Below are positions 4,248-60,115 of a DNA stretch of 64,000 bases, in pieces. Origin of the DNA: a virus (taxonomy: Duplodnaviria; Heunggongvirae; Uroviricota; Caudoviricetes); IMG/VR virus record IMGVR_UViG_3300031853_000008, positions 1 to 64,000 of that record. The stretch is one strand, 5' to 3'. The notes under the pieces were generated by a model. It worked only from the letters and a program-made list of their open reading frames with translations. It was not told the DNA's origin and made no database searches. How positions within the stretch are numbered: the stretch's first letter is position 1; every line of letters begins with the position of its first letter. A program made the translations under genes and the position numbers.

Positions 4248-4338
4248 TAGGGATGCCCGGACTCGAACCGGGATCACACCTATCTTCAGACGACTAGTAG
4301 TGTTTCACGTCCATCTCTACCTGTTGAGCTACATCCCC
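4248..4338 (-). tRNA. tRNA-like gene, 91 nt; canonical acceptor stem (GGGGATG/CATCCCT), D arm and T arm (CCCGG-TTCGAGT-CCGGG), but the anticodon stem GGACG/CGTCT encloses a 15-nt loop; isotype undetermined
   Basis: Folded by hand from the reverse complement. Length is in the type II range. The loop contains CTACTAG. Confidence 0.4.
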
Positions 4339-4410: not shown

Positions 4411-4611
4411 TCAACTCTCATCCAATATTTTTGCCCCAAACAAAGACATGATAAACGCTGAAATCCCCGCCAATATTAGATAGACCATCCCACCGTATCT
4501 TCCGACAAAGAACCACAAAATCATTGCAACTAGAAATGCCACTGTTTGTGACATATAGTATGTGAAATTGATTATTCGGTGACCGTATTTATCTAAATTC
4601 TCAAAGTTCAT
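4411..4611 (-). CDS. small hydrophobic membrane protein
   Basis: ORF with two predicted TM stretches. Lies between two tRNA genes. Confidence 0.45.
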   Translation of the reverse strand: MNFENLDKYGHRIINFTYYMSQTVAFLVAMILWFFVGRYGGMVYLILAGISAFIMSLFGAKILDES

Positions 4612-6181: not shown

Positions 6182-6447
6182 TCGAACGCTCCCCCTACTA
6201 AAGCATTAATCAGCATGATTCTGTCTTCCGGCTCTTTTGCCTGGATATTAATCTCCTTTACGAGGTCGTCTCCCTCATTGAACACTTTGGCAAGAGCGAA
6301 ATACTGTGCCAGTTTGCTCTTCAGATTAAGGCTCATATCTGGGGACAACAGATATACATCGCCTTTGCACTTGTCAATAAGTTCGAATAATTTATCAATG
6401 TTTTTTACGTTGTAAAGTGTCATAACGTACCTCCTTATGCCTTTCAC
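6178..6447 (-). CDS. hypothetical protein (89 aa)
   Basis: ORF in the packed array. Confidence 0.45.
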   Translation of the reverse strand: MKGIRRYVMTLYNVKNIDKLFELIDKCKGDVYLLSPDMSLNLKSKLAQYFALAKVFNEGDDLVKEINIQAKEPEDRIMLINALVGGAFE

Positions 6448-13717: not shown

Positions 13718-14465
13718 CATTTTATCTTGTGTCGCCACAGGCACTGACTATATCTTCTACCTTCCAGTAGCCTTCCGCTTCGGGGCGGTGTCCATCTCCG
13801 CCCCTACTCCCTTACATTCATCAGGGATAGTCGATACACTTTACATATACTCAAAGTTGTAATTATAGTGATTAGTCTTTTTGTCACCCTTTAATATAGA
13901 AGTAATTGTTTTCCTGTTTAATCCAAGTTGATTCGCGCATTCTCTGATGCTAGAGAATTCTTTTATTTCATTTGTATCTTTTGAAGTTGCCCTAATTGGG
14001 CATTTTCTATGCTATGGGTACAATCCCATGTCGTAAGCTTCTTGCGTATTGTATGCGTTAGTACACCATTCCAAATTTTCAATTGAATTATTTAATTTAT
14101 TCCCATCTTTATGATTTATCATTGGCAGAACATCAGGATTCGGAATAAATGTTTCTGCTATTAATCGATGCAATCGTATGTATTTTTTCTTTTTATTTAT
14201 CCGAAAACTTGTCATGTAATAGCCTAGGGAATCAATCCACCTACTTAACTTATGGAAACTTCCGTTCTTTAGCTTTTTATATGCATACTAGCTATCAACA
14301 TAAATATTAGGATATTTAGTTTCTTTCATTGTGGTCTCCTTTTCCACAACATCTGAGTATATGTCTTAGCACGGTCTCATCTTATTTCAAAGACCTAACC
14401 GTTAGCCCTTTCGGACACCCTTGGACAAGGTTCAAAAGGTTTTAGATGAGCTGTAGTTTACGCTT
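13718..14465 (-). other. group I intron in nrdD carrying an HNH homing endonuclease ORF
   Basis: Exon 1 ends in U and the intron ends in G. 3' core has R-like CGACTAT, a GGGGCGG..CCGCCCC hairpin (P8-like) and S-like GAAGATATAGTC. Splicing restores the conserved NrdD sequence. Confidence 0.6.
13841..14215 (-). CDS. HNH homing endonuclease (intron-encoded) with one in-frame TAG at 14012..14014
   Basis: HRLIAETFIPNP..NHKDGNKLNN HNH motif. After the TAG the same frame continues into the conserved NUMOD-like C-terminus (IKEFSSIRECANQLGLNRKTI) and ends at TAA. Confidence 0.6.
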
Positions 14466-15695
14466 ACCCATCGTTGATACATAAGTTCTGGGGTCATTCC
14501 TGTCATACCCCGCATTAACACTCCAATCTACATTACAATAGTTTGGATATAACCGCTTTGCCGTTGATTTAAGTGCAAGCCTATAAAGATCATAGTTCGG
14601 ATCTCCCGGCTTGCGATTTACCCCTTTCATACACTGAAAAATCCCGCATGGAAAAATAGGAGTCCGATGAAGAGCGCCGATTCCTTCAATAGAAACATCA
14701 AGAAGGGCTTTCGTTACCATTCTCCCTTCTGGCAAGGTGCATGTTCCGTAATTTACAGATGTAAATGGTAATTGGTTTCCAGATCTACTTTGAAGGGTAT
14801 TTAAATTATGGTACATCCCTTCAACCGCCTGATATGTTTCCTTTCGCGTCATATCCATAGCGTATTTATACGCTTTGTCATGGCTTCGATAAAAAGCATC
14901 ATCTATTCTTTTATCAATATCAAAGAATGCGTCTTCTAATCGAACTCTTTGTTCAATATATTGTATTCCATCTTTGAAATGCTTCCAGAACGATTTACGA
15001 ACATATGGCACCATAGTCCAATCAATATGCGATGCCGAGCAACCCCCGAATTCTTGCAAACTTTGGAGCTGGAATAGAACTGCAACAAGCTGAAAAGCAG
15101 TGTTAATGCTTTGAGCTGGCCTTACATCAGTTTGTCTAGTGTTAAATCCTTTTGCGAGGAGATCATCAAAAGGAATAGTCAAACAATTGTGCATTCCCAC
15201 CGCGTAAGCATCAAGATCGTGTATATAAATCTCATTATTCAGATGATTATTACGAGACATCTCACTCATACAATAATCAAGAGCATACTGTTTCATTAAC
15301 GTAGAACTTGCCTCGCCTCTTCTCCCCCCAAAACTCTTTTCATCAACATTCGCATTTTGATTCTGCACATTGCTTGCATCAATCTTTTCTGCGATTGTTC
15401 TCATCATTCGACTGTTTTTTTCTCTGGCAAGCCTTCTGTTTTCTCTATAAATAACAAATGCTTTTGCTACATCTTTACGGTTGCTTGACATCAACTTATT
15501 TTCAATAATGTCTTGAATATCTTCAACAGACATATCTTTTCCGCTATCGGAAATTAGCTTGGATATTTCAGTGGCCTTATCCCTCGTATACTTCGTCGTT
15601 TCCCCATCAACTTCTGTAAAAGCCTTGATAATCGCGTCCTTCACTTTTTGTCGATCAAACTCAACTACTCTTCCGTCACGTTTCTTTACTTTCAT
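14466..15695 (-). CDS. nrdD: anaerobic ribonucleoside-triphosphate reductase NrdD, exon 1
   Basis: Starts MKVKKRDGRVVEFD (ATP-cone). RBS AGGAAG. Confidence 0.7.
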
Positions 15696-15753
15696 AACTT
15701 CCTCTCTTCCTTGTGTATTCCAACAGTTACTATAATGAACCGCAAAACGGTTA

Positions 15754-16605
15754 TTATGCCTTGTAAATAACGTCCATTCTGTGTATCTTCCCACCACCGT
15801 TTCTTCTTACGGTAGAAGCATCACGGTGCCAAATCGGCATGACAAAGTCATACATAGAAAAATACACGGGGAATCTCTGTTCTGTCGCCCAATGAACAAA
15901 ATCAAAAAAATCATCAAGATTATCCTTAGAAATGTCACAATAAACTATATCCCCAGGCTGATATTGATATTTGCGGTAGTCCATTGTTGTCATTTCAAGA
16001 TTGTTTCTTAAATCACCTATACCAGCTAAACTCTGTAGGGACTCGATTCTCTCAAGCCCCTCACATCTCATAGCAGACAAGTTTTTCAACTCTTTCTTAT
16101 GAACGGTTACGCAGTTATTAAACTCAGCCCGCCGCGACACCCAATCTTTTGCTTTTACATATTCGGCGATATCGGGGAGCGTTCCCTTGATAAAACTCTC
16201 ATATCGTCCATTGACAATATACTCGTGGATCGCCTTTTTCCAATCTTCTGTGTTGTAGCTGAAAGCATAATCCTCTCCGTTGCAACTAAAAGACCAATTC
16301 CATTTAATAAAGGCATCCTTGTCTCTTTTGTTGGCGAATTCTGTTCTTTCGATGAATGGCGGATCATAGATATCCGGCAGATATTTTCCATCCATTACGT
16401 CATTCAAATACGGAAGCCAAGTGCTATCCCTGTCGTTATATAAAACTTTCCCCCACTTTTTACTCAATAATGCACAGTGGGAGATTGCGAACCCCCCGCC
16501 ACAGATATCAACTAAGCGATTTCCATTTGGCAGAGCGTTCACAATATCTTCAGCTAATTTTGACTTGCTTCCTTTACAAGGAACTCCATACCTACTTGCC
16601 CTCAT
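15754..16605 (-). CDS. DNA N6-adenine methyltransferase (Dam-like)
   Basis: GGG motif (VDICGGGF) and DPPF catalytic motif. Confidence 0.55.
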   Translation of the reverse strand: MRASRYGVPCKGSKSKLAEDIVNALPNGNRLVDICGGGFAISHCALLSKKWGKVLYNDRDSTWLPYLNDVMDGKYLPDIYDPPFIERTEFANKRDKDAFIKWNWSFSCNGEDYAFSYNTEDWKKAIHEYIVNGRYESFIKGTLPDIAEYVKAKDWVSRRAEFNNCVTVHKKELKNLSAMRCEGLERIESLQSLAGIGDLRNNLEMTTMDYRKYQYQPGDIVYCDISKDNLDDFFDFVHWATEQRFPVYFSMYDFVMPIWHRDASTVRRNGGGKIHRMDVIYKA

Positions 16606-17366: not shown

Positions 17367-17886
17367 TTTTATAGTTCTCAGATCCTATGAATCCGCAACA
17401 TCTCATTTCCGGGCAAAATCCTCTGTATTCACATTCCGGCACCATACAATCGGCAAGTTCAGGCTCGACCGTGCGGACAGCCTCTACAACCGCCCTCCAA
17501 GCCCCTCTCGTCTCGTTTGCGGCCTGACTGCATAACCTCTTCCTGCTTATATTAATAAGCGCCTGTGCGTTCGCTAGGAGTGTCAGACAGACGCTTGCGT
17601 TCTGTGGGAGGTTATTTCTATCTATTCCAGTTCTATCGGTTCTCTCTGTTGAGACGTATGGAGTCACCCCGATGTGGTGGCGCACTAGATGCATTGCCAC
17701 CCAGTAAGGAATATCATGGATTCTTATCGTCAACTCGATATACCTTATAGGAGAATGCTCTGCTCTAAGTATCTTACTCTTCCATGTAGAGGAAGGATAC
17801 TTTCCTGTTTCCTTCCCCACGGTATTCATGGCGGCGTTTTTCACTTCCTGCCAATGGTCTTGATAGTTCAAAATCTCTACGTTCAT
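17320..17886 (-). CDS. thyX: flavin-dependent thymidylate synthase ThyX-like (short)
   Basis: AEHSPIRYIELTIRI ... RHHIGVTPYVSTER resembles the ThyX signature. Confidence 0.5.
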   Translation of the reverse strand: MNVEILNYQDHWQEVKNAAMNTVGKETGKYPSSTWKSKILRAEHSPIRYIELTIRIHDIPYWVAMHLVRHHIGVTPYVSTERTDRTGIDRNNLPQNASVCLTLLANAQALINISRKRLCSQAANETRGAWRAVVEAVRTVEPELADCMVPECEYRGFCPEMRCCGFIGSENYKNETEDYRNGFKNRET

Positions 17887-19922
17887 GCCGTCTTATCCTT
17901 CCTTAAGTCCGACTTGTAAAGATACTGATAATCCAGTATCCAGAGTTCATTAGTGTGTGGAATCGGCACCCAATTACCATTTTCATTGGCTCTTCTCTTC
18001 GGTTTATTCATATAGTTCCCAAGTTTTATCACATCTCCTTCAACAAGAGAATGATTAATAAATTCCTTCTTTGGGACTTTGAATGAATAATACCCAGAGT
18101 TTTTCAGAGAATATGCACTTATGATAGGCGTTGATTTTTTATCATCAACATCTCCGATAACACAAACTCCTGCCGCTTCCGGGTCCGTAACTGTTACGCT
18201 GTGCAGGATCTGCTGCTGATACGATGCCTTGTGAATCGCATCGAAATCCGTCACTTTTATCTTTTCAAGACCAGTTAGCATCCCTAACATATCCATCATC
18301 ATGTATGTGGCGGGAGTTTCTTTACCACAATACTTCTTAATTATATTTTCCCCGACCAGAAGATTTTTTACGCTACTTTTCTTTATTTGTTTTTTGAAGC
18401 GCTTATTTGCGTTATCATAAAGTTGCTCAAATGCTTTCAGTATTCCTAAAAGCTTCCTCGATGTACCGAACTCTGAAAAATAATCAATCTTAACAAGCTG
18501 CTCGATTGTTTTAAGCCCGATCCCAGTATTACTCTTGATAAATAAAATTAACGATGTAAATGTATCCCCATCAAAATCCTTTATCTTATACAATTCATCA
18601 GCTACTGTTTTCCCAAGTCCTTTGATTGCTGACAGGCTGGGGTTGATACAATGTGATTCTTTATCAATCGTAAACTGCCTGTTATCAAGCCGGAACTTAT
18701 AAGCACCTTCGTTTATCCCAAATGCCTTTTTCATTTCTGTCTTAAAGGCTACTACTTTATCTTTATCCCCTTTATCGGTGTACATCTGAAGCATAGTACA
18801 ATAAAACTCATACGGATAATGAGCTTTTGTATAGGCCCCATACACAGAATCATACGCATATGATACAGAGTGTGAGGCGTTAAACGAATACCTTGCGGAG
18901 GCTTCTACAATCGCCCAGGTCTTTTCGAATCCTCTCATAGATCCGACTTGTTTCATCCAACCTTCTGCTAATTTGGACTTAAGCTCTTCAAGTGCCTCTA
19001 GGGTGAATTTCTTTTTCGAAATCTTTTTAATAATGGCATAGGTTTCAGTTTGTGGAATGCCAAGCCATCCAAGATAACCCATTATTGACTCTTGATAAAT
19101 CATAAATTTCATAGAATCTTGTAATAAGTTATCTAATTCTTTTACCCCAGTTGTGTAATATTTTCTCTGAAGAAAAGTACTTAGCTGAGTTTTAAAGCCA
19201 GGGCGGAGTGCAGCGACAAAGGCACTCATCTCTCGCATATTCTTTGGTTTATACTCCATACAGGAATTTCTGCCAAAATCCGACTCACATTGATTAACGC
19301 CGCATGTGTAGCCTTTAGCGTAGATGTCCCAAGTTGCTTGATCACTCTCAACTAGTTCGTTCATCTCGTTAATAGAAGGTGTTGGAATTCCAACTTTCTT
19401 GAATATTTCATTAATGGCTAGCCACACATCAACCTTAAGTAAATCGTTCTTAAGATACTTGTATTTTTCGGCAACCATTCCATCTACAACGGTTGTTAAT
19501 ACATAATTTCCGTCACTGGTGGAACATCTAATAAGACCAATTTCGCTTTTAATATCACCGCCATAAATAAGATATCCACACGGGGCCTGTGACTTCGCGT
19601 TGATAATCTTCTGGTATTTTTTAGATTCGTCCAACATCTTATGATATTGTGGAGAAACATAATCATAGACGCTGATTGAATCCTTATCATCCGCACTAGC
19701 ATGTTTTAATGCTTTTTCATACTTAGCAAGCTGTTTTGTTACATTATTCGATGTTTCAAAATCAAGCCCCTGAGACTTCGCATACAACTTAAAGGCTGAT
19801 GATGCCTGTAACGGTTTATATGAAATCATCGGGTATGAATGCCCAGGAGTTCCATAAGCTTCTGTTAAGATATCATCCTGCGCTTTCGCAAATGGCTCAA
19901 CTGTCCCAAGGTTCATATCAAT
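17883..19922 (-). CDS. dnaE: DNA polymerase III alpha (DnaE-like), exon 2 (palm, fingers and C-terminal region)
   Basis: FNASHSVSYAYDSVYGAYTKAHYP matches the DnaE fingers motif. Begins IDMN.., completing the PDxDxD catalytic motif with exon 1. Confidence 0.7.
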   Translation of the reverse strand: MDMNLGTVEPFAKAQDDILTEAYGTPGHSYPMISYKPLQASSAFKLYAKSQGLDFETSNNVTKQLAKYEKALKHASADDKDSISVYDYVSPQYHKMLDESKKYQKIINAKSQAPCGYLIYGGDIKSEIGLIRCSTSDGNYVLTTVVDGMVAEKYKYLKNDLLKVDVWLAINEIFKKVGIPTPSINEMNELVESDQATWDIYAKGYTCGVNQCESDFGRNSCMEYKPKNMREMSAFVAALRPGFKTQLSTFLQRKYYTTGVKELDNLLQDSMKFMIYQESIMGYLGWLGIPQTETYAIIKKISKKKFTLEALEELKSKLAEGWMKQVGSMRGFEKTWAIVEASARYSFNASHSVSYAYDSVYGAYTKAHYPYEFYCTMLQMYTDKGDKDKVVAFKTEMKKAFGINEGAYKFRLDNRQFTIDKESHCINPSLSAIKGLGKTVADELYKIKDFDGDTFTSLILFIKSNTGIGLKTIEQLVKIDYFSEFGTSRKLLGILKAFEQLYDNANKRFKKQIKKSSVKNLLVGENIIKKYCGKETPATYMMMDMLGMLTGLEKIKVTDFDAIHKASYQQQILHSVTVTDPEAAGVCVIGDVDDKKSTPIISAYSLKNSGYYSFKVPKKEFINHSLVEGDVIKLGNYMNKPKRRANENGNWVPIPHTNELWILDYQYLYKSDLRKDKTA

Positions 19923-20187
19923 CCTTGCTACCCTCGGTTTCCCGATATTTATTAGGGGAGTAGACTATACCATTATCTCAATGAGATACCCATTGGTAGT
20001 CGTTGCAAGCTTTCCATTTAAGGACTATCTCTCAGGATTATCAAATCCTCAATCTTGTTACCATACTGTGGTGATTAGCCACACCGCGCTTCAGTTTCCT
20101 TTGCGTTTGGTAATTGAGGCTCTAATGACTTCCCCTGATATTCTGGGTTATTCAATACGGATCGCTCCGTAAGGCGACTATAAGTTA
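19923..20187 (-). other. group I intron (265 nt, no ORF) in dnaE
   Basis: Begins with TAA directly after exon 1 ...SLPD (last nt U) and ends in G. Contains GACTAC / P8 hairpin / TATAGTCTAC (P7-like). Removal restores SLPD-IDMN. Confidence 0.5.
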
Positions 20188-21498
20188 ATCGGGCAATGAT
20201 CTTGTTTTTAATATACGAACTTCGCTAAGAAAACGATCTGGGTAGAGTTTTACAGGAGATGTAAAACGGTCAACACTAGAAAATCCTAACAAAGAATTAA
20301 TGTAATACGATACCGCACTTCCTCTTCCTGTCTTCGTAATAACCCCGCCGTATTCTTTGCCGCGCTTAACCAACTCATAATCCAATAAGAAATAATCTGA
20401 CATATGAGTATTTATTACAGCGTTTAACTCATACTGAATGCCATCCTCGTATTCCTTCCATCTTGATGGATCAACGTGCTGCTTTTCTTTATCCCATGCA
20501 TCATAAATAATCGACTTTAACTTATTATCTTTCCATTCCTGTGACTTCCCTGGATACAGAGTTGGCAGCTTGATATCTTTCCCAAATGTGATATCATCAA
20601 AAGTTAAGATGATATCCGATGCATCAAGCATTTCATCTATCTCAGCTTCATTAAAAACACCCTGTTCGATTAATCTCTGCTTCGCCGTCTCTCGGTCGGG
20701 GTAATCCATGTACCACCCGACTTCATCCTCGTCATAAGTAAATCCGCGCCCCTCAAGATAATTATCTCTCTCAACGCTATCGGATTCATATATGTAGTGG
20801 CTGTCTAATCCGACAATCCATTTAATTCCATACTTATAATGTAACTCTTTTATGTGTTTATTAATATCTTTCTGTCTGTCTGTATTATGGCACTGGGTTT
20901 CCAAATAGAAACTGTCCCCAAAGTGTTTCCACAGCTTCATCGTAATATCATCAATGTCTTCGTACTGCCAGTACTTCACACAGGCCGTGGTTACCATCAC
21001 ATCTTCCGGCTTCAGTTGCTCTAACAACTCAAGATCAACTCTTGCCTGTCCGTAATATCCAGTGATATTTGCTTCGGAGAGGATACTATTTATCTCTCGC
21101 CGCCCCTGTTCATTCCGGGCCAGTAAGATAATGTGGCAGTTCGCCCTGTCTTTGCGGTACTTGGTTTCCGTGTTCCCCTTCTTATCGGTAACAGTATAAG
21201 GATATTCCTTTTGTCTGTCTTTTACCCAATAAGCTTCTGCTCCAAATACAAATTTTTGTTTTTGTTTATTATATTGTTCTTCCGTAATGTCGCCAATATC
21301 TAATCGAGCCTTAAGCTTTTGATTGAAATCGACGACGCTGTCATAATAAACATAATAGTTTGATTGAAAACCATGCTCTACAGTGCTAACTACTTGGCTT
21401 CCGACCTCAACATTTCTCTGGATGTACTTTTCAGGGGCAGTAGCGCAATCAATTACACAGCAGTTAGAAAACCAACTGTGTTTATGATAATTCTGCAT
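20188..21498 (-). CDS. dnaE: DNA polymerase III alpha (DnaE-like), exon 1 (PHP domain and first palm segment)
   Basis: HKHSWFSNCCVID..VEHG PHP motifs and GRGSAVSYYINS palm segment. Start 21498 with GGAGG RBS. Confidence 0.65.
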
Positions 21499-22261
21499 CC
21501 TCGTCCTCCATCTCTTTGTATAGGCAATCATTTCTAAAAGAACACAACCTATTACACCATAGGAACGATTTCTTAGCGGCAAATTCCTGGTCATTCTCGA
21601 TAAGATTTATTGTTTCAAGCACCCAGTTTTTGGTTTCTTCGCATTCATCTTCTCTATAGGGGATCTCTGTAATTGCTCCCTTATCAAGAAAATGATTCCA
21701 CGCAAGAGATTGTGCAGAAATACCGAATTTCTGTTTGACCCCCATAGCGTAAATGTAAAGTTGCTTTTTGTAATCGTTAAACTGATCAAGTTTACTCTTC
21801 AGCGGGGTGCCGTCTTTCTTTAGAAAATGACCACTACTCTTATGATCCACTATAATAGTCTCACCATTATTTTTATCCTCGATAATTAAATCAACACGCC
21901 CAATTATTTCATTTCCGTTCAGTTCAAACTCAACTGGGATCTCCGTCCCTAAAACTTTAAAATTTGCAAAAAACTTATCGATATCAAGAGTATCCAGGTA
22001 ATCGATAAATTGATCCTGTTTCGCAAGTACTTTTTCGATATCCGTATCTTCCGGGACTTCGGCTAAGAGATTATCAAGAGTATTCTGTTTTGCTTGCTCT
22101 ATTGTTTCTTTCCCAGAAAAAAGCATCTATAATTCATTATGGCAAAAGCTCCCGACAGCAGCCTGAAAGTTCTTTTCCTCGTACTGTTGTTCAACCTTAT
22201 GTAAATAATAGGCATATGGGCATTGTCTGTATTGGCTTAAACTACTGAAAGAATACTGCAT
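21482..22261 (-). CDS. PD-(D/E)XK Cas4/RecB-like exonuclease with in-frame TAG at 22127..22129
   Basis: N-terminus MQYSFSSLSQYRQCPYAY (44 aa, strong AAGGAGG RBS), then TAG followed immediately by ATG, then the D..EDK nuclease core and C-terminal CxxCxxxxxC. The N- and C-terminal Cys form the expected 4-Cys cluster only if TAG is read through. Confidence 0.55.
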
Positions 22262-25816: not shown

Positions 25817-26043
25817 GTTTCATCATCCTTCATTGAATAGTCACTCCATTTTACGGAAGATGTATTTTCATTCCCCGCATCAGGAGTTGTTGTTTTCAAA
25901 ATACTGATAATCTCACCCTTCATATCTTCGCCACCGATAAAGTATGCCAGATTTAGAATTTCCCGCTCTCTTGCCGCCCTGTCGTTCTTCTGTGCGATTC
26001 CAGCAAGTTTAATAGCTATCTTCAGTTTCTTGAATTTTGTCAT
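25813..26043 (-). CDS. hypothetical protein (76 aa)
   Basis: ORF. Confidence 0.4.
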   Translation of the reverse strand: MTKFKKLKIAIKLAGIAQKNDRAAREREILNLAYFIGGEDMKGEIISILKTTTPDAGNENTSSVKWSDYSMKDDET

Positions 26044-26061
26044 GAGATTCTCCTTATATAG

Positions 26062-26133
26062 TCACCCGGTGGGGATTCGAACCCCAGTCTTGAGGGTTAG
26101 GGCCTCTCGTCTTGACCACTCGACTACCGGGCG
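26062..26133 (-). tRNA. amber suppressor tRNA, anticodon CUA (reads UAG); charged amino acid unknown
   Basis: 72-nt cloverleaf: acceptor CGCCCGG/CCGGGTG, U8A9, D arm GTCG..GAC, T arm TGGGG-TTCGAAT-CCCCA, discriminator A. Anticodon arm GAGG/CCTC with loop CCCTAAC puts CTA at positions 34-36. Position 33 is C rather than U. Confidence 0.6.
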
Positions 26134-26202
26134 CTCTGTCTTTCCAGAGTGTCAAGTTGATTTGTATTTCCAGTTACTGGTTACATATTTGCGTCACAAA
26201 AA

Positions 26203-26463
26203 TTAGAAACGAAGGAAGTCTGTCAGAAGGGCTGGAATAATGCTTAAACTGCTATATCCACCATAATCTGCTTCGTACTTTTCCTTCAGCTTCAAATACT
26301 CGCGTTCCGCATCTTGAACTCTGTCATATGCCTTACGGAGTTCTTCTGCTCGTTCCTTCTTCTTGCTCTTGATTGTGAGAGCATCGGCTTCAGCCACTTT
26401 CGCTTCGTCTTCTGTTCCGTAAAACTTCTGCGTTACATCGCTATAGTATCTCAATGGAATCAC
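26203..26463 (-). CDS. hypothetical protein (86 aa; non-ATG start)
   Basis: ORF with an AGGGG RBS and an ATT/alternative start. Lies between a conserved leader element and the suppressor tRNA. Confidence 0.35.
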   Translation of the reverse strand: MIPLRYYSDVTQKFYGTEDEAKVAEADALTIKSKKKERAEELRKAYDRVQDAEREYLKLKEKYEADYGGYSSLSIIPALLTDFLRF

Positions 26464-26480
26464 CCCTTTCTTTTAGATTT

Positions 26481-26545
26481 CAAGACCCGAAAATGGTTGC
26501 AGATTAACAGTCTGTTCATATTTGTGTTGCTGTTAGGGTCTTAAT
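26481..26545 (-). promoter_or_regulatory. conserved leader element copy L3 (AAGACCC-AACAGCAA..CAGACT..GCAACCATTT..GGGTCTTG)
   Basis: About 65 nt that aligns with L2 (28841..28908) and partly with L1 (58879..58974). Its ends are complementary (AAGACCC / GGGTCTT). Confidence 0.4.
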
Positions 26546-26639
26546 AATTTTTATTATTATTTACAAGGCGCTCATTACTAGATCGGTTACAAGTCGATTG
26601 TAAAGTTGTTTGCTGTATGCGCCTTAATTTCAAGACTCG

Positions 26640-26712
26640 GCTTTGACTTTGAGCTGGGGCCAGATTAGAACTGGCAATCTCTCCGGGGCCACCGAAGCGC
26701 TTTAACCTTTGA
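26640..26712 (-). ncRNA. tRNA-like fragment (D-arm-like GGCTCAAAGGTTAAAGC and T-arm-like CCAG-TTCTAAT-CTGG hairpins) just downstream of rsr
   Basis: GC-rich structured segment. No canonical acceptor pairing could be found. Confidence 0.25.
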
Positions 26713-26750
26713 GCCACCCGGCTAATCATTGCTGTACGGAGTCTTATAGC

Positions 26751-28274
26751 TTACACAATATCCTTTACGGCATCTTCTATTGGCTTATATCTATCTGTAT
26801 TCAACTCATTAAGAAGAGCTTCATACGGATCAATCTTTGCCGTCATAAACATCTTCAGCAGATTCACAGAGAACCCAGAACAGAGAACCATGCCGAGATC
26901 ATTCTCCTGCATCGGAATCGTCTTATCCATGTTAAGCGACAGATTCCAGAAAACAATCTTTGGCAGCTTATAGCCATGACTCTGATATTCGTCGCTGATT
27001 TCTTCGAATAGAGTCTTGTTATATCCAAAACTTGTCCAATGGCTTCTTCCATCCCACTGCATATCACTGCAAATCACAATCATCTTCGGCATATCGTCCT
27101 GCGTCATATGATTCTCGATTGCGGTGTTCAGAATCAGTTTCATTGTCTTATAGATGTCTGTATTGGAACATTCATCTTCTGCATAAGTCTTAGCAACTTT
27201 ATCTGCCAGGGTCTTACAATTGCGGAGATCGATAAACTTCGGATTGGCGGAAAATGTAATGAATCTCCCCCGCCAAGCCTTAGAGTTATGATCCGCCATG
27301 TAAATAGCGAGTGCTGTGGCAACATCAATAGGCCTGTAGCTTCCACAGTTAGATTCCATTGACCCGCTACCATCTCTGACGACAAGAGCATCGGAGAGCA
27401 TAATATTCTTCTGGCTCTTCCATAATTCTTCCAGTACTGGATCTTCTTTCACATTATCGCGCTCCCAGTAACAACGACCACCAATATACTGCTTGACAAT
27501 CTCATGCGGCTGAAGAGCCTTTGCGTTAATCTTTGTATCGCCTTTAACAAGAGAGTCAATATATTCCTGTCTTCTTGCTTGATCGTGACGTGCGAACGCA
27601 TCTTTGTAATTGAGATTTGCCTTGGACGGAACCTTTGCGTAATCAATATCGCTCCAGTTCCCGCAAGACATCTTCTGCTCCACTACATCAAGGTACGTTC
27701 TCAGCCCTGTAAGAAGTTTTCTGTACTGGCGGGGCTGAATCCCCCACTCATCCATCGTCTTTCTCGCAAGTCTTCTTGTGTTCTTTGACGAAGTGTTTTC
27801 TGATGGAAGCCATTTGCTCAAAAGGGATACAGACTTTCCTTCTTTTGCATTTCTCACATCTTCAAGAGCCTGGTTGAGCATGAGCCTTGCCGTATCTTTC
27901 CAGACTGGAGTATTCTCTAGTGTATAAAGGCTATCCCATCTGTTATATTCTGAGACGAACTTAATCAGCTTTTTCACAACGTCTGGCTTCTGATCCGCCA
28001 GCCACGCAAGACAAGCCCGGAAGACTTTACGCTCTCCCACCCCCTCACGGATATCTCCAACATAGAAGAGATACTTTACCGCAATAAGTGGGTTCTCGAA
28101 ATAAACCTTTGCAAATTCATCCTTGATATCACTCTCGTCCATACTCCTCATAGAAGAAAGCGCGAAGTTGAAATCAAGAAGGTTCTTTCCTGATGTTTTG
28201 TATGCAACGGCACCGTTCGTGGTAAGCGTTTTCTCGTTGTTAAGTTCTTTCTTCATTCCATCATAAAAATTCAT
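26751..28274 (-). CDS. rsr: Ro60/Rsr-like ribonucleoprotein (TROVE + von Willebrand A domains)
   Basis: N-terminal TTNGAVAYKTSGKNLLDFNF TROVE-like region. vWA MIDAS VVRDGSGSM. Start MNFYDG with AAAGGA RBS. Confidence 0.6.
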   Translation of the reverse strand: MNFYDGMKKELNNEKTLTTNGAVAYKTSGKNLLDFNFALSSMRSMDESDIKDEFAKVYFENPLIAVKYLFYVGDIREGVGERKVFRACLAWLADQKPDVVKKLIKFVSEYNRWDSLYTLENTPVWKDTARLMLNQALEDVRNAKEGKSVSLLSKWLPSENTSSKNTRRLARKTMDEWGIQPRQYRKLLTGLRTYLDVVEQKMSCGNWSDIDYAKVPSKANLNYKDAFARHDQARRQEYIDSLVKGDTKINAKALQPHEIVKQYIGGRCYWERDNVKEDPVLEELWKSQKNIMLSDALVVRDGSGSMESNCGSYRPIDVATALAIYMADHNSKAWRGRFITFSANPKFIDLRNCKTLADKVAKTYAEDECSNTDIYKTMKLILNTAIENHMTQDDMPKMIVICSDMQWDGRSHWTSFGYNKTLFEEISDEYQSHGYKLPKIVFWNLSLNMDKTIPMQENDLGMVLCSGFSVNLLKMFMTAKIDPYEALLNELNTDRYKPIEDAVKDIV

Positions 28275-28297
28275 AATCAGTATCCTTTCATTGTAAG

Positions 28298-28410
28298 GAG
28301 GGCAGTGTGGGTTCGAACCACAAACATCGCCTTTCAAGAGGAAAATGTTTTGCTGTTAGCACCTATACAAGATGCGTATTTTCGTGCTCTACCATTGAGC
28401 TACTGCCCTC
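28298..28410 (-). ncRNA. Y-RNA-like tRNA mimic
   Basis: Perfect acceptor stem with G-1 (gAGGGCAG/CTGCCCT), U8A9, D arm GCTC-AATGGTA-GAGC, T arm TGTGG-TTCGAAC-CCACA. In place of an anticodon arm there is about 63 nt of extra helices. Lies 23 nt upstream of rsr. Confidence 0.5.
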
Positions 28411-28505
28411 ATAGAAACAAGACCCTTAACCCATTGATTGCCGCTAGAAGGAGATCCATTTATCATTTTCATGTGATTTGCTGCGTGGGTCTTAATATGT
28501 TACTG

Positions 28506-28811
28506 TTATTTATTTAGTTTTTCTTCTTCTTTCTTTTTGATTTCCGCTTGCTCGTCCAACCAGTTCTGAAGCTTTCTGAATACGGAAATCTCTTTCTGTA
28601 AAGGAGTCTTACCGTTATCAATCCGTTTATCGGAATTTCTGGCAAGCTCATTTATTTTCTTGTACTGGTATCCCTTTCCATTCTCAATCCTAATTCTGAA
28701 ATGGGAGATTCTTTTTTTATCTCTCTCCTGCTTAATCGCCTTATTCTTTTCACGAGTTCCAGCCGCTTCGTACTTCTTGCACCAGTCTTTATTTCTTCCA
28801 ATCTTAGACAT
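28506..28811 (-). CDS. hypothetical basic protein (101 aa)
   Basis: Lys/Arg-rich ORF, first gene after leader L2. Confidence 0.45.
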   Translation of the reverse strand: MSKIGRNKDWCKKYEAAGTREKNKAIKQERDKKRISHFRIRIENGKGYQYKKINELARNSDKRIDNGKTPLQKEISVFRKLQNWLDEQAEIKKKEEEKLNK

Positions 28812-28840
28812 ACATAAGTCCTTTCTGTAATATCATAATC

Positions 28841-28908
28841 GCAAGACCCTAATTAAATGGTTGCGGATTTCAAGTCTGCTCATTATTGGTTTTGCTGTTC
28901 GGGTCTTT
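28841..28908 (-). promoter_or_regulatory. conserved leader element copy L2
   Basis: AAAGACCCGAACAGCAAAACCAATAATGAGCAGACTTGAAATCCGCAACCATTTAATTAGGGTCTTGC. A 16-mer (AGACCCGAACAGCAAA) is identical to L1. Confidence 0.4.
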
Positions 28909-28917
28909 CTATTGTTG

Positions 28918-28946
28918 ATATTACCACATTAATTTACGCATGTCAA
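28918..28946 (-). promoter_or_regulatory. sigma70-type promoter TTGACA-N17-TAATAT upstream of L2
   Basis: Sequence match. Confidence 0.35.
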
Positions 28947-31346
28947 CCCTCTTCGGATAAAATTCTTTTTATATTTTTCAAGGGTTCAATGAGAGTATTC
29001 AGTGCTATGCCGTTTCCCCACAACTTATATTCAGCTGAGTCGGAGTGTGGCACGTCGGCACACCAGTCATCTGGAAATCCCTGCAACCTAGCACATTCTG
29101 TCGGGGTCAATCTTCTCACAATATATTCATCTTCCATTACAAAATTCCTTCCATTATTTGTCATTACATAATGTTGTCCGTGACAATGGCTCGACCCCCC
29201 CCCACAAATACAGGGTGCCAACCCATCATCGCTACATATCTGCCTTGATTCGTGTTCCCACTGGTTCAATATCATTTCCGTTCCTCTTTACGAGAACATA
29301 ACATTCCGACCCACCCCATCTGCAATCGCCGCTATATAAAGCCCCACAGATTCCATCGGGCAAGAATATTGCCTTACTTTCTACGTCCCCTCTGTTTAGA
29401 TTTATTATCTTCAACATCGCTGTTCTCTACTCTATAGGCTACTGCGTGTACCTCTGTAATATTTAAGGTGTACATTACTTTGGATTCTTTATACCCTATG
29501 CCCTGATGGGATGGGCGGCAGCCATTTCCCTCAATTGCTACAGTCTCATCAGATATCATTTTCATATCATTTCCTTTGAAGCACCATCATCCCGCCTTGA
29601 TTACACGCAGGATTTCCACCGTTAAGATCAAGGGTCCTCGATGTTTCAATCTTCTGAATCCCGCTATAAGGGTTACTCGATTTCATGCAGTTGGAGCAAT
29701 ATGAAGATATATTATAAACAAGAAATTTTTGACTCTTGCTCTTTTCTAATACTATCGGAAGGTGTTGGTGCGTCTGCGCCCTCAATGTGCCTACTACATC
29801 TTCATATACTGTCATCTGACTCCCGCCTTGGTCATCTAACACAATCATTTTTCTTCCTCGTTATCAGTACCTGATCTTGAGAAACCCCAAGTGTGGCGGA
29901 AATATCTGTCTGAATCAAAAGCCCTTTCCCGGCAGTCCCCGTCTTTCCGTTCCACATGGTATATGTATTTGCCCCCCCTCTTATCTTAAGAGTATAGGCA
30001 TCTGCTCCCTAAATATATGGCATATCATTTTTCCTTCTTTAATAGTATAGCTGGCGGATCTTTATAATCATTCCAATGAAGAGTATACGCAACATTAATG
30101 TTCCGCCATCTGCACATCTGCCCACCCTGGTCGGTCATCCAGTACTTTTTATTACTGTCTTTTTTTATAAGCACGAGTGGAGTATTGTTCCCCCCAGTGC
30201 CATATCGAGCGGATACTGTGCATGCGATATCATATGGCCCAGTAACCCTAGAATCTCCTGGGTGGCTTTCGTAATATTGTGGCTTCATGATGATTCCTTT
30301 TTATTAACAATTACTATAGGAGTCCTATTCTCAGAATTATCAAATACATTTAATGTATCTGACACTTTTGTTTCTTCCCAAAGCTGTGGCTATCCTTTGT
30401 AATGGGAATGCGCTTTCTTATGAAAAGCGTAAACCACAGACATCTGATTGTCCCCGGGGTTACTCCTTAATGTTCCGCTCACTTTTTCATAGTAGTGGCC
30501 ACCACACCTTGACATAACCCCAGGTTCGAATGACATAGGTTCTGTTAATTTTTTTTTACATCATCCTCTGTTGATAATCCGGCTTGTTTCATTAATGCGT
30601 TCTTCAAGACTTCTGGAAGTTCCTTCCCACGACTTTCTGATCTCCTCAGTATTCCAAGACACGCTTTCGGGCTTAAATAATACTTCGGCTGCTCTTCTTC
30701 CATCAAGATCTGCGACAAGGTACACTCTCCGCCTTCTTTGGGCGGTACCGCCTCCGACGTGGCAAGCGTCCAAGGTACGCCAAGCGATTTGCCAGTCATC
30801 TCCGTCCAGAACTCCTGCGTAGTGCCATTTCCCTTCTGGAGGGAGAGGTACATTGGCACATCTCTCTTTAATTTGCGCCACTGTTTCGAGTACTGTTCTA
30901 AAGTCTGATCCTTTGTTGCTTGAGAATATCCCGGGGACATTTTCAAAACACCAGAATCTCGGATATCTTCCATTTGTTACCTCCCTCATTTCTTTTGCAA
31001 TTCGAACTGATTCATAAAATAGTCCACTCTGCTTTCCGGCCAGCCCTTCCCTATTTCCTGCAACGGAAATATTTGTGCATGGGCTTGAATTCGTAAACAC
31101 ATCAACTGGCGGGATTTTTGCCCCATCAATCTTTGTTACATCTCCAAGCTGAATACACTCAGGAAATCGTTTTGCTTCAAGTGCTACAGGGAACGGTTCA
31201 ATCTCTGATTCCCATAATGGCTTTATCCCGACCATCTTCCCAGCCAACTCCCATGTTCCAGCCCCTGAGAAAAGATTGCCTAATGTAATTTCCTTTTTGC
31301 TCATATTCTTACCTCCTGAACCATACATTATCATATTAATATCCAT
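28943..31346 (-). pseudogene. fragmented multi-TRD DNA (cytosine-5)-methyltransferase, split over at least 6 frames
   Basis: ORF 30561..31346 has motifs I (LFSGAGT), IV (SPCTNISVAG), VI (ENVPG) and VIII (QRRRRVYLVA). Downstream fragments carry repeated TRD-like T..R..G.GGN segments and a terminal IX/X (RLTPTECARLQGFPDDW, WGNGIA) in frames 0/1/2, with at least one TAG. Confidence 0.45.
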
Positions 31347-58874: not shown

Positions 58875-58878
58875 CATT

Positions 58879-58974
58879 AAGACCCGAACAGCAAATTTAC
58901 AGGATAAATTATGATGACATTGAACGGATATGAACTTGGTTCGTCCCCGTTCTTTCCCTTTTTTGGGTCTTGCG
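58879..58974 (+). promoter_or_regulatory. conserved leader element copy L1 upstream of the late operon
   Basis: TTAAGACCCGAACAGCAAA ... TTTTTTGGGTCTTGCG. The termini match L2 and L3 and are mutually complementary. Confidence 0.4.
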
Positions 58975-58997
58975 CCATGATTAAGGAGGGAAGCTAT

Positions 58998-60052: not shown

Positions 60053-60115
60053 AGTGACGCTAAGAAATCTGTTAAATAGATAGAGAAAACCAAATAGCGT
60101 AAAATAATGTAGACG

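What the first reader, a model, noticed from the sequence alone, without database searches (positions are those of the whole stretch)
26481..28908. Conserved ~65-nt leader element present three times, ahead of the late operon, the rsr operon and the suppressor-tRNA operon
L2 (28841-28908) and L3 (26481-26545) align over almost their whole length. Both start AAGACCC(G/T)AACAGCAA, contain CAGACT and GCAACCATTT, and end GGGTCTTG just before the first gene. L1 (58879-58974, plus strand, before the TAG-rich late operon) shares an identical 16-mer AGACCCGAACAGCAAA at its 5' end and GGGTCTTGCG at its 3' end. The two termini are reverse complements (AAGACCC/GGGTCTT), which suggests a stem closing a structured 5' leader. 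A shared cis element could couple late morphogenesis with production of the suppressor tRNA, Rsr and the Y-like RNA. It could be a late promoter plus an antitermination or processing RNA.
Basis: seen in the sequence. Interest (0 to 1): 0.65.

Follow-up and report, generated by a model that had tools for sequence, protein, structure and literature searches.

The report
Y-RNA-like modules for phage Ro protein
The repeated "leader" is real, but it is one of at least seven copies of a small folded RNA module (a covarying stem plus the invariant motif ACAGCAA) that travels with a Ro60-like RNA-binding protein in hundreds of phages. It is therefore most likely that protein's docking site, on small Y-like RNAs and on some mRNA leaders, and not a late promoter.

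Summary
The window holds six free-standing copies: L1 58879-58972(+), L2 28907-28842(-), L4 28493-28418(-), Ea 26745-26631(-), Eb 26625-26564(-) and L3 26542-26481(-). A seventh, permuted copy lies inside a tRNA-like gene (28409-28298).

The consensus is a 7-9 bp stem formed by the two ends, then nnA-CAGCAA directly 3' of the 5' strand, a variable interior, and an unpaired G after the 3' strand.

Five copies flank a DUF2828/DUF7788 gene whose AlphaFold model best matches Ro60. In 84 phage loci carrying this gene, a covariance model finds 146 copies, all on the gene's strand. The stem covaries at every pair.

Long forms enclose a permuted tRNA-like domain and give sub-threshold, full-length matches to Rfam YrlA. 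No Rfam family reaches threshold.

Phages that keep the metallophosphatase-terS-terL order lack the element before terS. Several have a tRNA gene there.

The element often forms the 5' leader of the Ro-like gene itself.

My reading: it is the docking module of a divergent Y-RNA family, used both in small RNAs and in mRNA leaders. The promoter and antitermination ideas are not supported. Binding has not been tested.

The parts
58879..58972 (+). L1. A free-standing module with stem AAGACCC (58879-85) / GGGTCTT (58965-71) plus an unpaired G (58972), and ACAGCAA at 58888-94. Its interior is a two-tier hairpin followed by a U/C-rich tract. It lies 26 nt before the ATG (58998) of the first TAG-recoded late gene (terS-like).
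   Evidence: (27.8 bits, E=6e-4, not in the seed)
28842..28907 (-). L2. A free-standing module with stem AAGACCC/GGGTCTT+G, ACAGCAA, and an anticodon-arm-like hairpin GCAGA-CUUGAAA-UCCGC. It lies 31 nt before the ATG of a 101-aa ORF (28811-28509). It is the first RNA feature after a sigma-70-like promoter.
28918..28946 (-). Sigma-70-like promoter TTGACA-17 nt-TAATAT (TG before the -10 box). It ends 10 nt upstream of L2 and is the likely start of the leftward transcript that carries L2, L4, the tRNA-like gene, the Ro-like gene, Ea, Eb and L3.
   Evidence: 10 of 12 matches; a consensus match only, function inferred
28418..28493 (-). L4. It has stem AAGACCC/GGGTCTT+G and the motif variant CGCAGCAA. 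It lies 8 nt upstream of the tRNA-like gene.
   Evidence: 31.6 bits, E=7e-5, not in the seed
28298..28409 (-). A 112-nt tRNA-like gene with normal acceptor, D and T arms. The anticodon arm is replaced by the permuted module (hairpin GCATCTTG-tat-AGGTGC followed by TAACAGCAAAAC) and a short CUUGAA-loop hairpin.
   Evidence: (Rfam tRNA 42 bits with a 53-nt insert)
26754..28277 (-). Gene for the Ro60-like protein (508 aa; Pfam DUF2828 + DUF7788; PHROG 850 'RNA-binding protein'). This is the presumed partner of the module.
26631..26745 (-). Ea. A long module with stem AAGACTC/GAGTCTT+G and ACAGCAA. It encloses a complete tRNA-like sequence (26723-26651), giving a YrlA-like architecture.
26564..26625 (-). 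Eb. A free-standing module with a covarying stem AAGGCGC/GCGCCTT+G, ACAGCAA, and a hairpin with loop CUUGUAA.
   Evidence: (60 bits)
26481..26542 (-). L3. A free-standing module with stem AAGACCC/GGGTCTT+G, ACAGCAA, and an anticodon-arm-like hairpin CAGA-CUGUUAA-UCUG. It lies about 27-36 nt before the start of an 86-aa ORF (to 26206), which is followed by the suppressor tRNA(CUA) at 26133-26061.
   Evidence: (62 bits)

Best explanation
The element is a portable RNA module. It consists of a 7-9 bp helix, the single-stranded motif nnA-CAGCAA directly 3' of the helix's 5' strand, and an unpaired G after the 3' strand. I propose that it is the docking site for the phage's Ro60-like (DUF2828/DUF7788) ring protein. 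That makes it the counterpart of the Ro60-binding module of Y RNAs.

The module carries interchangeable cargo:
- a tRNA-like domain (Ea, and YrlA-like long forms in other phages);
- an anticodon-stem-loop look-alike (L2, L3, Eb);
- other hairpins (L1, L4).
- It can also be grafted, circularly permuted, into a tRNA body in place of the anticodon arm (28409-28298).

In this phage, the promoter before L2 probably drives one leftward transcript that carries L2, L4, the tRNA-like gene, the Ro-like gene, Ea, Eb and L3. L1 sits alone before the late operon.

What is shown:
- the repeat;
- the RNA-level structure, supported by covariation;
- the strand-specific linkage to the Ro-like gene;
- the architectural match to YrlA.

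What is inferred:
- The Ro-like protein binds the module.
- Copies between RNA genes are released as small Y-like RNAs.
- Copies directly 5' of ORFs (L1, L2, L3) act as operators, through which the same protein modulates translation or stability of those mRNAs. This would mirror what the module appears to do in the leader of the Ro-like gene itself in other phages.
- Free Y-like RNAs would compete with the leaders for the protein.

The direction of any such control (repression or protection) is unknown. I favour translational repression or feedback, because in several phages the Shine-Dalgarno (SD) ribosome-binding sequence abuts the helix, and in one (KVP40) the SD and the AUG lie inside it.
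For: 1. Linkage to the Ro-like gene.
- In 80 IMG/VR loci chosen only for a DUF2828 homologue, ACAGCAA occurs 336 times on the gene strand and 33 times on the other strand.
- With a perfect 7-bp closing stem the counts are 231 versus 21.
- 73 of the 80 loci hold at least one copy, and up to 10.
- Covariance model R1 finds 146 hits at E<=0.01 in 84 loci, all on the gene strand. It finds none in 158 kb of TerL-centred loci.

2. RNA-level structure.
- In 134 distinct sequences the closing stem is 98% paired, and all 7 pairs show changes on both sides. Over the 12 modelled pairs, pairing is 95.8% against 64% in shuffles and 35-50% with slid partners.
- G-U pairs outnumber A-C mismatches 24 to 5 on the sense strand.
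- C, G and C of CAGCAA are invariant and each A is present in at least 132 of 134; the 3' unpaired G is present in 128 of 134.
- The permuted hairpin inside tRNA-like genes also covaries at 6 of 7 pairs.

3. The partner protein has the Ro60 fold.
- The AlphaFold2 model has pLDDT 80.
- Its six best PDB matches are Ro60/Rsr over the full length, with E about 3e-6 to 4e-5 and TM-score 0.38-0.50.
- Homologues are annotated 'Ro-like RNA binding protein' in mycobacteriophages.

4. Same architecture as Y RNAs.
- Y RNAs are defined by a 5'/3' stem holding the Ro60 site plus an effector module, which is often a permuted tRNA mimic (10.1101/312249; PMC4201824).
- Long forms of this family give full-length matches to Rfam YrlA RF02553 at 33-48 bits. 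The closing stem aligns to the YrlA outer stem.

5. Leader use.
- A copy ends within 60 nt of the Ro-like ATG in 36 of 80 loci. In about 13 of these the SD abuts the stem.
- In KVP40, phiM7 and Campylobacter phage F371 the module lies directly upstream of the Ro-like ORF; in KVP40 and phiM7 a promoter-like site lies just 5' of it. In KVP40 the stem includes the AUG.

6. The family is present in cultured phages of Proteobacteria, Firmicutes and Actinobacteria.
Against: - No binding, transcript-end or expression data exist. Everything about protein-RNA contact is inferred from co-occurrence and analogy.
- The protein is assigned to Ro60 by predicted fold only. It has 12-17% identity, TM-score of at most about 0.5, no Pfam TROVE hit and no PDB sequence hit.
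- The conserved motif (ACAGCAA) differs from the known Ro60-site motif GNCGAAN0-1G/CGAA. Every YrlA match is below Rfam's gathering score.
- Of 45 full elements found by a pattern scan of IMG/VR, 25 had no Ro-like gene in the fetched stretch. They sat in tRNA arrays instead, often 5-13 nt upstream of a tRNA. The true partner could therefore be a tRNA-processing factor.
- L1 is 30 kb from the Ro-like gene, and its position is not conserved in relatives.
- The element sets were collected with a regex or model that demands pairing, so the 'percent paired' figures are partly circular. The strand bias, the variety of pair types and the slid controls are not.
Confidence: 0.68

Rival explanations
1. 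The module belongs to tRNA-array biology rather than to the Ro-like protein. On this view it is a structured spacer or 5' leader that guides or protects processing of polycistronic tRNA precursors by RNase P, Z, E or J, or by an unknown phage factor. Its proximity to the Ro-like gene would arise only because that gene also lives in tRNA arrays.
For: - Copies sit 5-13 nt upstream of canonical tRNAs in 33 of 163 cases, and next to each other in 15.
- 25 of 45 scan-derived copies had no Ro-like gene in the fetched stretch, but many had tRNAs.
- L4 is 8 nt before a tRNA-like gene.
- Relatives have a tRNA where L1 sits.
- The stem plus 3' unpaired G resembles an acceptor stem plus discriminator base.
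Against: - KVP40, phiM7 and Campylobacter F371 carry the module directly upstream of the Ro-like ORF, with no tRNA between them.
- Long forms align to YrlA, a known Ro60 partner.
- An invariant single-stranded heptamer is not a known feature of RNase P, Z or E recognition.
- The fetched stretches were short parts of contigs of roughly 100-240 kb, so an absent Ro-like gene in them is weak evidence.
Confidence: 0.14
2. The element is a late (or middle) promoter plus an antitermination or processing leader, which co-activates morphogenesis genes, the suppressor tRNA and rsr.
For: - It lies directly 5' of the first TAG-recoded gene, and upstream of the ORF that precedes tRNA-Sup.
- L1's interior has a hairpin followed by a U/C-rich tract that looks weakly terminator-like.
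Against: - Only L2 has promoter-like hexamers upstream, and they lie outside the element.
- Copies occur in tandem and inside tRNA-like genes, which is not promoter behaviour.
- Six of the seven copies lie in the replication/recombination gene block.
- 23 phages with a related TerL lack the element before terS, and those checked keep the same gene order.
- Compensatory base changes show selection on RNA pairing, not on DNA hexamers.
Confidence: 0.03
3. The element is a self-cleaving ribozyme or ribozyme-like processing element with permuted topologies (as in hammerhead or twister). It would cut polycistronic RNA next to tRNAs, like the HDV-like theta ribozymes of recoded gut phages.
For: - The helix can be closed at either end, as in permuted ribozymes.
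- The context is tRNA-adjacent in recoded phages.
- The core heptamer is invariant.
Against: - No Rfam ribozyme family matches, even at E<=1.
- The interior is not conserved in sequence or length (about 25-110 nt), so no catalytic core beyond 7 nt is available.
- The 5'-end/3'-end helix topology is not that of HDV-like ribozymes.
- Sub-threshold twister-P1 hits in two loci lie elsewhere, not in the elements.
Confidence: 0.04
4. The element acts at the DNA level as a miniature mobile element or recombination cassette, with terminal inverted repeats AAGACCC/GGGTCTT that has spread within the genome.
For: Four copies in this phage share an identical stem yet have unrelated interiors (L1 and L4 against L2/L3). 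This looks like cassette exchange or concerted evolution.
Against: - Strand bias relative to transcription is absolute: 146 to 0.
- G-U pairs outnumber A-C mismatches on the sense strand.
- Stems differ between copies in other phages while pairing is preserved.
- No target-site duplications or transposase were seen.
Confidence: 0.03

Closest known systems
YrlA / bacterial Y RNAs (Rfam RF02553; Chen et al. 2014, PMC4201824; Wang et al. 2018, 10.1101/312249)
   Same: - Modular RNAs whose 5' and 3' ends form the protein-binding stem, with a conserved motif at the junction of stem and loop.
- The effector module is often a circularly permuted tRNA mimic.
- They are encoded near a Ro60-type gene, on the same strand, and often in several copies.
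- Long forms of this family align full-length to RF02553.
   Different: - The junction motif is ACAGCAA, not GNCGAAN0-1G.
- The partner is a DUF2828/DUF7788 protein that has the Ro60 fold but no TROVE Pfam match.
- All RF02553 scores (28-48 bits) are below the gathering score of 69, and the short forms do not match at all.
- There are up to about 10 copies per locus, interleaved with tRNAs.
- The module is also found permuted inside tRNA bodies, and as an mRNA leader.
Yrl1/Yrl2 of Thermus phage phiLo with phiRo60 (Hu et al. 2025, PMC12135203)
   Same: These are phage-encoded Y-like RNAs just upstream of a phage Ro60 homologue, with a 5'-3' stem flanking a loop that holds a short conserved motif. 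Binding was shown there by EMSA, and the complex attenuates host PNPase.
   Different: - That motif is CGAA.
- The window protein finds no chain in a sequence search of the PDB copy made in 2026 at E<=1, so it has no detectable sequence relative among solved structures.
- There are two RNAs there, not arrays.
- No anticodon-loop-like cargo or leader use was reported.
Autogenous translational operators that mimic the protein's primary RNA ligand (for example the E. coli thrS leader mimicking the tRNA-Thr anticodon arm, ribosomal-protein leaders, the MS2 coat and T4 RegA operators). This comparison rests on established knowledge and was not tested here.
   Same: The same binding module appears both in the presumed primary RNA ligands and in the 5' leader of the protein's own gene. 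It lies next to or overlapping the SD and AUG.
   Different: Regulation is untested here. In this window the module precedes three genes other than the Ro-like gene.
HDV-like theta ribozymes next to tRNAs in recoded gut phages (Kienbeck et al. 2024, PMC10879173)
   Same: These are small structured RNAs adjacent to phage tRNAs, including suppressor tRNAs, in stop-codon-recoded phages.
   Different: The fold topology differs. No ribozyme model matches, and there is no conserved catalytic core.

Membership tests
Y RNA / YrlA-type Ro60 partner RNAs | A long stem formed by pairing of the RNA's 5' and 3' ends | tested here: met
   The 7-bp closing stem is 98% paired in 134 distinct sequences, and all pairs covary. 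All six window copies have it.
Y RNA / YrlA-type Ro60 partner RNAs | Encoded close to, and on the same strand as, a Ro60 orthologue | tested here: met
   Five of the six free-standing copies lie within 1.6 kb of the DUF2828 gene. Across 84 loci, 146 of 146 hits are on the gene strand. The protein's Ro60 fold is shown by Foldseek. L1 is the exception, 30 kb away.
Y RNA / YrlA-type Ro60 partner RNAs | The known Ro60-site sequence (GNCGAAN0-1G / CGAA at the stem-loop junction) | tested here: not met
   The junction motif is nnACAGCAA: C, G and C are invariant and each A is present in at least 132 of 134. CGAA in L1 and L2 is incidental and is absent from L3, L4, Ea and Eb.
Y RNA / YrlA-type Ro60 partner RNAs | A second (effector) module, tRNA-like in YrlA | tested here: inconclusive
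   Met for Ea (tRNA-like 26723-26651) and for long forms elsewhere (GGTTCRA in 13 interiors against 0.6 expected). L1-L4 and Eb carry other cargo, as does YrlB.
Y RNA / YrlA-type Ro60 partner RNAs | A match to Rfam RF02553 at its gathering score (69 bits) | tested here: not met
   The best scores are 47.8, 39.8 and 33.5 bits for long forms in other phages. There is no hit in the window region at E<=1.
Y RNA / YrlA-type Ro60 partner RNAs | Physical binding by the Ro60-type protein | not testable with these tools
   This needs EMSA, RIP or a structure.
Sigma-70-type or phage late promoter | Conserved hexamers at fixed spacing in every copy, upstream of a transcript start | tested here: not met
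   Only L2 has such a site, and it lies outside the element. Tandem copies and copies inside tRNA bodies are incompatible with a promoter.
Known self-cleaving ribozymes (hammerhead, twister, pistol, hatchet, HDV-like) | A match to the family's covariance model or conserved catalytic core | tested here: not met
   There are no ribozyme hits over the elements at E<=1.
Cis-regulatory mRNA leader (protein-binding operator) | A recurrent position in the 5' UTR of a defined gene, next to the SD and AUG | tested here: met
   A copy ends within 60 nt of the Ro-like ATG in 36 of 80 loci, and the SD abuts the stem in about 13. KVP40, phiM7 and F371 carry the module directly upstream of the ORF, and KVP40 and phiM7 have a promoter-like site 5' of it. 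The regulatory effect itself was not tested.

The most novel reading that the evidence does not exclude
The family would be a phage toolkit of bait or decoy RNAs. A Ro60-like ring docks on the invariant helix+ACAGCAA handle and displays interchangeable look-alikes of host translation RNAs. Chief among these are anticodon stem-loops with loops CUUUUAA (Lys-UUU-like), CUGUUAA (Asn-GUU-like), CUUGAAA and CUUGUAA, and whole tRNA bodies.

These baits would absorb, sense or repair attack by host anticodon nucleases and related tRNA-targeting defences. The same handle in mRNA leaders (the Ro-like gene, terS-terL-portal, the ORF before tRNA-Sup) would let the free protein level gate those genes. That would tie the switch to TAG-recoded late expression to the state of the tRNA pool.
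Probability: 0.12. Interest if true: 0.88.

Novelty: new variant of a known kind. Interest (0 to 1): 0.63.

Why it matters
- DUF2828 'Ro-like' proteins occur in at least 703 cultured phage genomes. These include Felix O1-like coliphages, KVP40, Listeria P100-like phages and Staphylococcus, Enterococcus, Campylobacter and mycobacteriophage lineages. Thousands of metagenomic homologues also exist. Their function and RNA partners are not described in the literature I could search.

- A sharply defined handle of about 20 nt (covarying helix, ACAGCAA, 3' G) gives a direct, testable candidate ligand. It would also allow dozens of unannotated small RNAs per phage lineage to be annotated. Some of them are currently called short hypothetical proteins or 'tRNA-OTHER'.

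- The family extends the Y-RNA concept in three ways: a second recognition code, multi-copy arrays inside tRNA clusters, and a possible autoregulatory leader.

- For this phage, the practical point is that the region before the recoded late operon is an RNA-gene slot rather than a late promoter, so the recoding switch must be sought elsewhere.

Tried and rejected
- blastn of 26000-29000 against cultured phages found no match.
- An exact-pattern scan for TAAGACCCNNNCAGCAAA in IMG/VR gave 50 single, unrelated hits. The stem sequence is phage-specific, so this was the wrong probe.
- The search for related loci with single proteins gave only one relative each. An alignment query was needed.
- Rfam at gathering score and at E<=1 over the elements returned only tRNA. 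The ribozyme and riboswitch ideas were dropped.
- A sequence search of the PDB with the protein found nothing. Only the fold search was informative.
- Promoter and terminator scans were at background level, apart from the L2 promoter.
- I tested whether L1-type placement before terS is conserved. It is not.
- I tested whether some interiors mimic the 16S 3' end (anti-SD CCUCC). There is no enrichment: 2 observed against 2.5 expected.
- I asked whether ACAGCAA pairs with a conserved complementary site. Its complement TTGCTGT occurs 33 times on the gene strand of the 80 loci, against my own rough estimate of about 36 expected by chance, so it is not enriched.
- Literature searches for DUF2828 and for Ro-like proteins with phage ncRNA found no description of this family. 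One review (PMC10870794) was not available.
- The supplement of Chen et al. 2014 is not held. I therefore could not check whether any of their 22 phage YrlAs carry CAGCAA.


Full report
**1. The observation**

The three elements are present as described.
- On the strand of the local genes, each begins AAGACCC-nn-ACAGCAA and ends GGGTCTTG.
- L2 and L3 are 80% identical.
- L1 shares a 17-mer at its 5' end and a 10-mer at its 3' end with L2.
- Chance is excluded. AAGACCCNNNCAGCAA gives 4 exact matches, and 8 with up to 2 mismatches against 1.1 expected. AGACCC-N35-65-GGGTCT gives 3 against 0.03 expected. No shuffle reaches either number.

A scan for CAGCAA with a flanking complementary 7-mer revealed more copies on the same strand.
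- L4 (28493-28418) has the same stem.
- Eb (26625-26564) has stem AAGGCGC/GCGCCTT.
- Ea (26745-26631) has stem AAGACTC/GAGTCTT and encloses the tRNA-like sequence that ARAGORN and Rfam call at 26723-26651.
- The 112-nt 'tRNA' at 28409-28298 has a 53-nt insert in place of its anticodon arm. The insert holds the same parts in permuted order: GCATCTTG-loop-AGGTGC, then TAACAGCAAAAC.

**2. Genomic setting**

- Genes run leftward from about 45 kb to 1 and rightward from about 46 kb.
- The leftward block encodes DNA polymerase III alpha, NrdD, a primase-helicase, a Sak-type annealing protein, methylases and integrases.
- In the rightward block, in-frame TAG codons start exactly after L1. The metallophosphatase gene before L1 has none. 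The terS-like gene has 8, terL has 14 and the portal gene has 6.
- Six of the seven copies lie in the leftward replication block, around a 508-aa ORF (28277-26754).
- That ORF matches Pfam DUF2828 + DUF7788 and PHROG 850 'RNA-binding protein'.
- It has no PDB sequence relative. Its AlphaFold2 model (pLDDT 80) finds Ro60/Rsr as its six best PDB matches over the full length, with E of 3e-6 to 4e-5 and TM-scores of 0.38-0.50. vWA domains follow in the list.
- It is therefore a divergent Ro60-like protein.

**3. Comparative evidence**

The one relative found first already showed the key point (L051; protein 55% identical). The same ACAGCAA element occurs before and after its Ro-like gene with different but complementary stems: AAGGCAC/GTGCCTT, AAGTCGC/GCGACTT, ACGGCAC/GTGCCGT and AAGGCGGG/CCCGCCTT. 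It also has two tRNA-like genes with the permuted insert.

The protein family is large. There are more than 2,795 homologues at E<=1e-20, at least 583 in IMG/VR, and 703 cultured phage records.

In 80 IMG/VR loci selected only by the protein:
- ACAGCAA is ten-fold strand-biased, 336 to 33.
- 231 against 21 occurrences have a perfect closing stem.
- 73 of the 80 loci have at least one copy.

A covariance model was built from 47 copies (A3 and R1).
- It finds 146 hits at E<=0.01 in 84 loci, all on the gene strand.
- It finds none in 158 kb of control phage loci.
- In the window it finds only the five short free-standing copies. Ea is missed because of its large insert.

On 134 distinct sequences:
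- The closing stem is 98% paired.
- Every pair shows double changes, for example AU, UA, GC and CG at the outermost pair.
- Slid-partner controls fall to 35-50%.
- G-U exceeds A-C by 24 to 5 on the sense strand.
- C, G and C of CAGCAA are invariant, and each A is present in at least 132 of 134.
- The nucleotide after the 3' strand is G in 128 of 134.

The permuted hairpin inside tRNA-like genes covaries as well. The collection steps favoured paired candidates, so absolute pairing percentages are inflated. The strand bias, the variety of pair types and the slid controls do not depend on that.

**4. What kind of RNA it is**

Rfam 15 has no family for it.

Long copies enclose a T-arm, a closed 'acceptor' hairpin and a D-arm in that order. 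This is the circularly permuted tRNA mimic of YrlA. They give full-length but sub-threshold matches to RF02553:
- L187, 33.5 bits;
- Enterococcus phage ZJGS2, 47.8 bits;
- mycobacteriophage UPIE, 39.8 bits;
- the gathering score is 69.

The closing stem aligns to the YrlA outer stem.

The literature defines Y RNAs by exactly this modular plan: a stem formed by the 5' and 3' ends that carries the Ro60 site, plus an effector module. The known junction motif is GNCGAAN0-1G/CGAA. Here the junction motif is ACAGCAA.

I therefore read the element as the protein-docking module of a divergent Y-RNA family, paired with the DUF2828 clade of Ro60-like proteins.

The cargo varies.
- 62 of 187 short copies carry a hairpin with the hallmarks of an anticodon arm (4-5 bp stem, 7-nt loop Y-U-NNN-R-N), against 10 +/- 3 in shuffles.
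- The commonest loops are CUUGAAA, CUUUUAA and CUGUUAA.
- By that criterion L3 qualifies. L2 and Eb have such a hairpin with one A-C mismatch in the stem, so they were read by eye and not counted.

**5. Where copies sit**

In other phages the copies lie in tRNA arrays.
- Many are 5-13 nt upstream of a tRNA (33 of 163).
- Some are in tandem (15).
- Some are within 60 nt of an SD plus ORF (22).

The last class is dominated by the Ro-like gene itself.
- A copy ends within 60 nt of its ATG in 36 of 80 loci, and the SD abuts the stem in about 13.
- In KVP40, Sinorhizobium phage phiM7 and Campylobacter phage F371, a module lies directly upstream of the Ro-like ORF. In KVP40 and phiM7 a promoter-like site lies just 5' of it. 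In KVP40 the 3' strand of the stem contains the AUG.
- This is the classic layout of an autogenous operator.

In the window:
- L1, L2 and L3 are in the same leader position before other genes: terS-terL-portal, a 101-aa ORF, and an 86-aa ORF followed by tRNA-Sup(CUA).
- L4 precedes the tRNA-like gene.
- Ea and Eb follow the Ro-like gene.
- A strong sigma-70-like promoter (TTGACA-17-TAATAT) lies just upstream of L2. L2 is probably the 5' end of a transcript running through the whole cluster.

**6. The late-operon link**

- 23 phages with a TerL 46-66% identical were fetched. terS matches in all 23 loci, and the metallophosphatase gene matches upstream in the 12 loci that extend far enough. Neither the model nor the regex finds an element before terS in any of them.
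- In several, a tRNA(UGU) gene occupies the L1 position, followed by the same AUGAUUAAAAGGAGG...AUGGC ribosome-binding region.
- L1 therefore sits in a slot that holds small RNA genes. Its placement is specific to this lineage.

**7. Mechanism: commitment and limits**

- Shown: the repeat, the RNA structure, the invariant motif, the strand-specific linkage to a protein with the Ro60 fold, the YrlA-like architecture of long forms, and recurrent leader placement.
- Inferred: the Ro-like ring binds the helix plus ACAGCAA. Copies between RNA genes are released as Y-like small RNAs. Leader copies let the protein modulate translation or stability of the downstream mRNA, and free Y-like RNAs compete for the protein. 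I put 0.68 on the docking-module identity and roughly 0.35 on a real regulatory role for L1-L3.
- Main rival (0.14): the module serves tRNA-array processing, and the Ro-like gene is merely a neighbour. This is supported by the 25 of 45 scan-derived copies with no Ro-like gene in the fetched stretch.

**8. Novelty**

Y RNAs next to phage Ro60 genes are known (PMC4201824, PMC12135203). What I could not find described or modelled in Rfam is:
- the ACAGCAA recognition code;
- its pairing with the DUF2828 clade;
- the multi-copy arrays in tRNA clusters;
- the permuted graft into tRNA bodies;
- the leader placement.

This is a new variant of a known kind, present in many model phages, and directly testable.

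Noticed in passing
window 58875-58998 versus 58998-63376: In-frame TAG use switches on exactly at L1. The metallophosphatase gene ending at 58874 has 0 TAG codons. The next three genes (terS-like, terL, portal) have 8, 14 and 6.
   Followed up: partly
window 58922-58964 (+), inside L1: L1's cargo is a two-tier hairpin (GAACGG..AUGAAC-UUG-GUUCGU..CCGUUC) followed by UUUCCCUUUUUU, which looks weakly like an intrinsic terminator. Part of the U tract can extend the closing stem. The terminator scan did not flag it.
   Followed up: partly
L137 2300-2400, L136, L142, L149 (loci of TerL relatives): Relatives have a tRNA gene (anticodon loop UUUGUAA or CUUGUAA, UGU) at the position of L1, directly before the conserved terS ribosome-binding region.
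   Followed up: partly
window 58879-85, 28901-07, 28487-93, 26536-42: Four copies in this phage share the identical stem AAGACCC/GGGTCTT although L1 and L4 have interiors unrelated to L2 and L3. In other phages, copies in one genome mostly have different stems. This suggests concerted evolution or cassette exchange at the stems.
   Followed up: no
window 53114-53356 and 53691-54007 (+): There are two group I introns (Rfam RF00028, 76 and 91 bits) about 340 nt apart in the rightward gene block.
   Followed up: no
window 4248-4338 (-): A 91-nt tRNA-like gene. ARAGORN reports an odd two-base 'anticodon' (ga), and Rfam tRNA gives 37 bits. It has no CAGCAA motif.
   Followed up: no
window 12755-15797 (-) and 17883-21594 (-): NrdD is split into two ORFs with a gap of about 700 nt. 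DNA polymerase III alpha is also split into two ORFs. Intervening elements are likely.
   Followed up: no
window 10016-12108 (-) and 28943-29275 (-): The phage carries a C5-cytosine methylase next to an NgoFVII-type restriction endonuclease. There is also a 110-aa ORF that matches only the C-terminal end of a C5 methylase, just upstream of the L2 promoter.
   Followed up: no
window 13240-13277 (-): This is a weak covariance-model hit (20.9 bits, E=0.025) inside the NrdD coding sequence. It has AAGAATTC..CAGCAA..GAATTTT. It is probably chance.
   Followed up: no
L281 2400-2465 (Vibrio phage KVP40), L285 (Sinorhizobium phiM7), L284 (Campylobacter F371): A module lies directly upstream of the Ro-like ORF in all three. 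KVP40 and phiM7 also have a sigma-70-like site just 5' of it. In KVP40 the SD and AUG lie inside the helix (GACAUU...AAUGUC). This is an autoregulation-like layout.
   Followed up: partly
L158 5834-7045 (Listeria phage LP-048): An RtcB-like RNA ligase gene lies 1.3 kb downstream of the Ro-like gene. This echoes the bacterial rsr-yrlA-rtcBA RNA-repair operon.
   Followed up: no
L195 4082-4706, L169 1-552, L188 1447-1903, L158 1451-2002: Large ncRNAs share the tRNA arrays that hold the modules: ROOL at 341 and 254 bits, a sub-threshold ROOL in the Listeria phage at 90 bits, and a sub-threshold GOLLD at 103 bits. A tmRNA (L195) and sub-threshold twister-P1 hits (L249, L187) are also present.
   Followed up: no
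L159 4513-4602 (Staphylococcus phage S-CoN_Ph11); L156 5039-5126, 6352-6422 (phage wV8): Deposited annotations call short 'hypothetical proteins' or 'tRNA-OTHER' pseudogenes in the same arrays. In S-CoN_Ph11 the CDS at 4513-4602 overlaps an element (model hit 4523-4592). In wV8 the tRNA-OTHER at 6352-6422 contains a hairpin plus CAGCAA. These are probably mis-annotations.
   Followed up: partly
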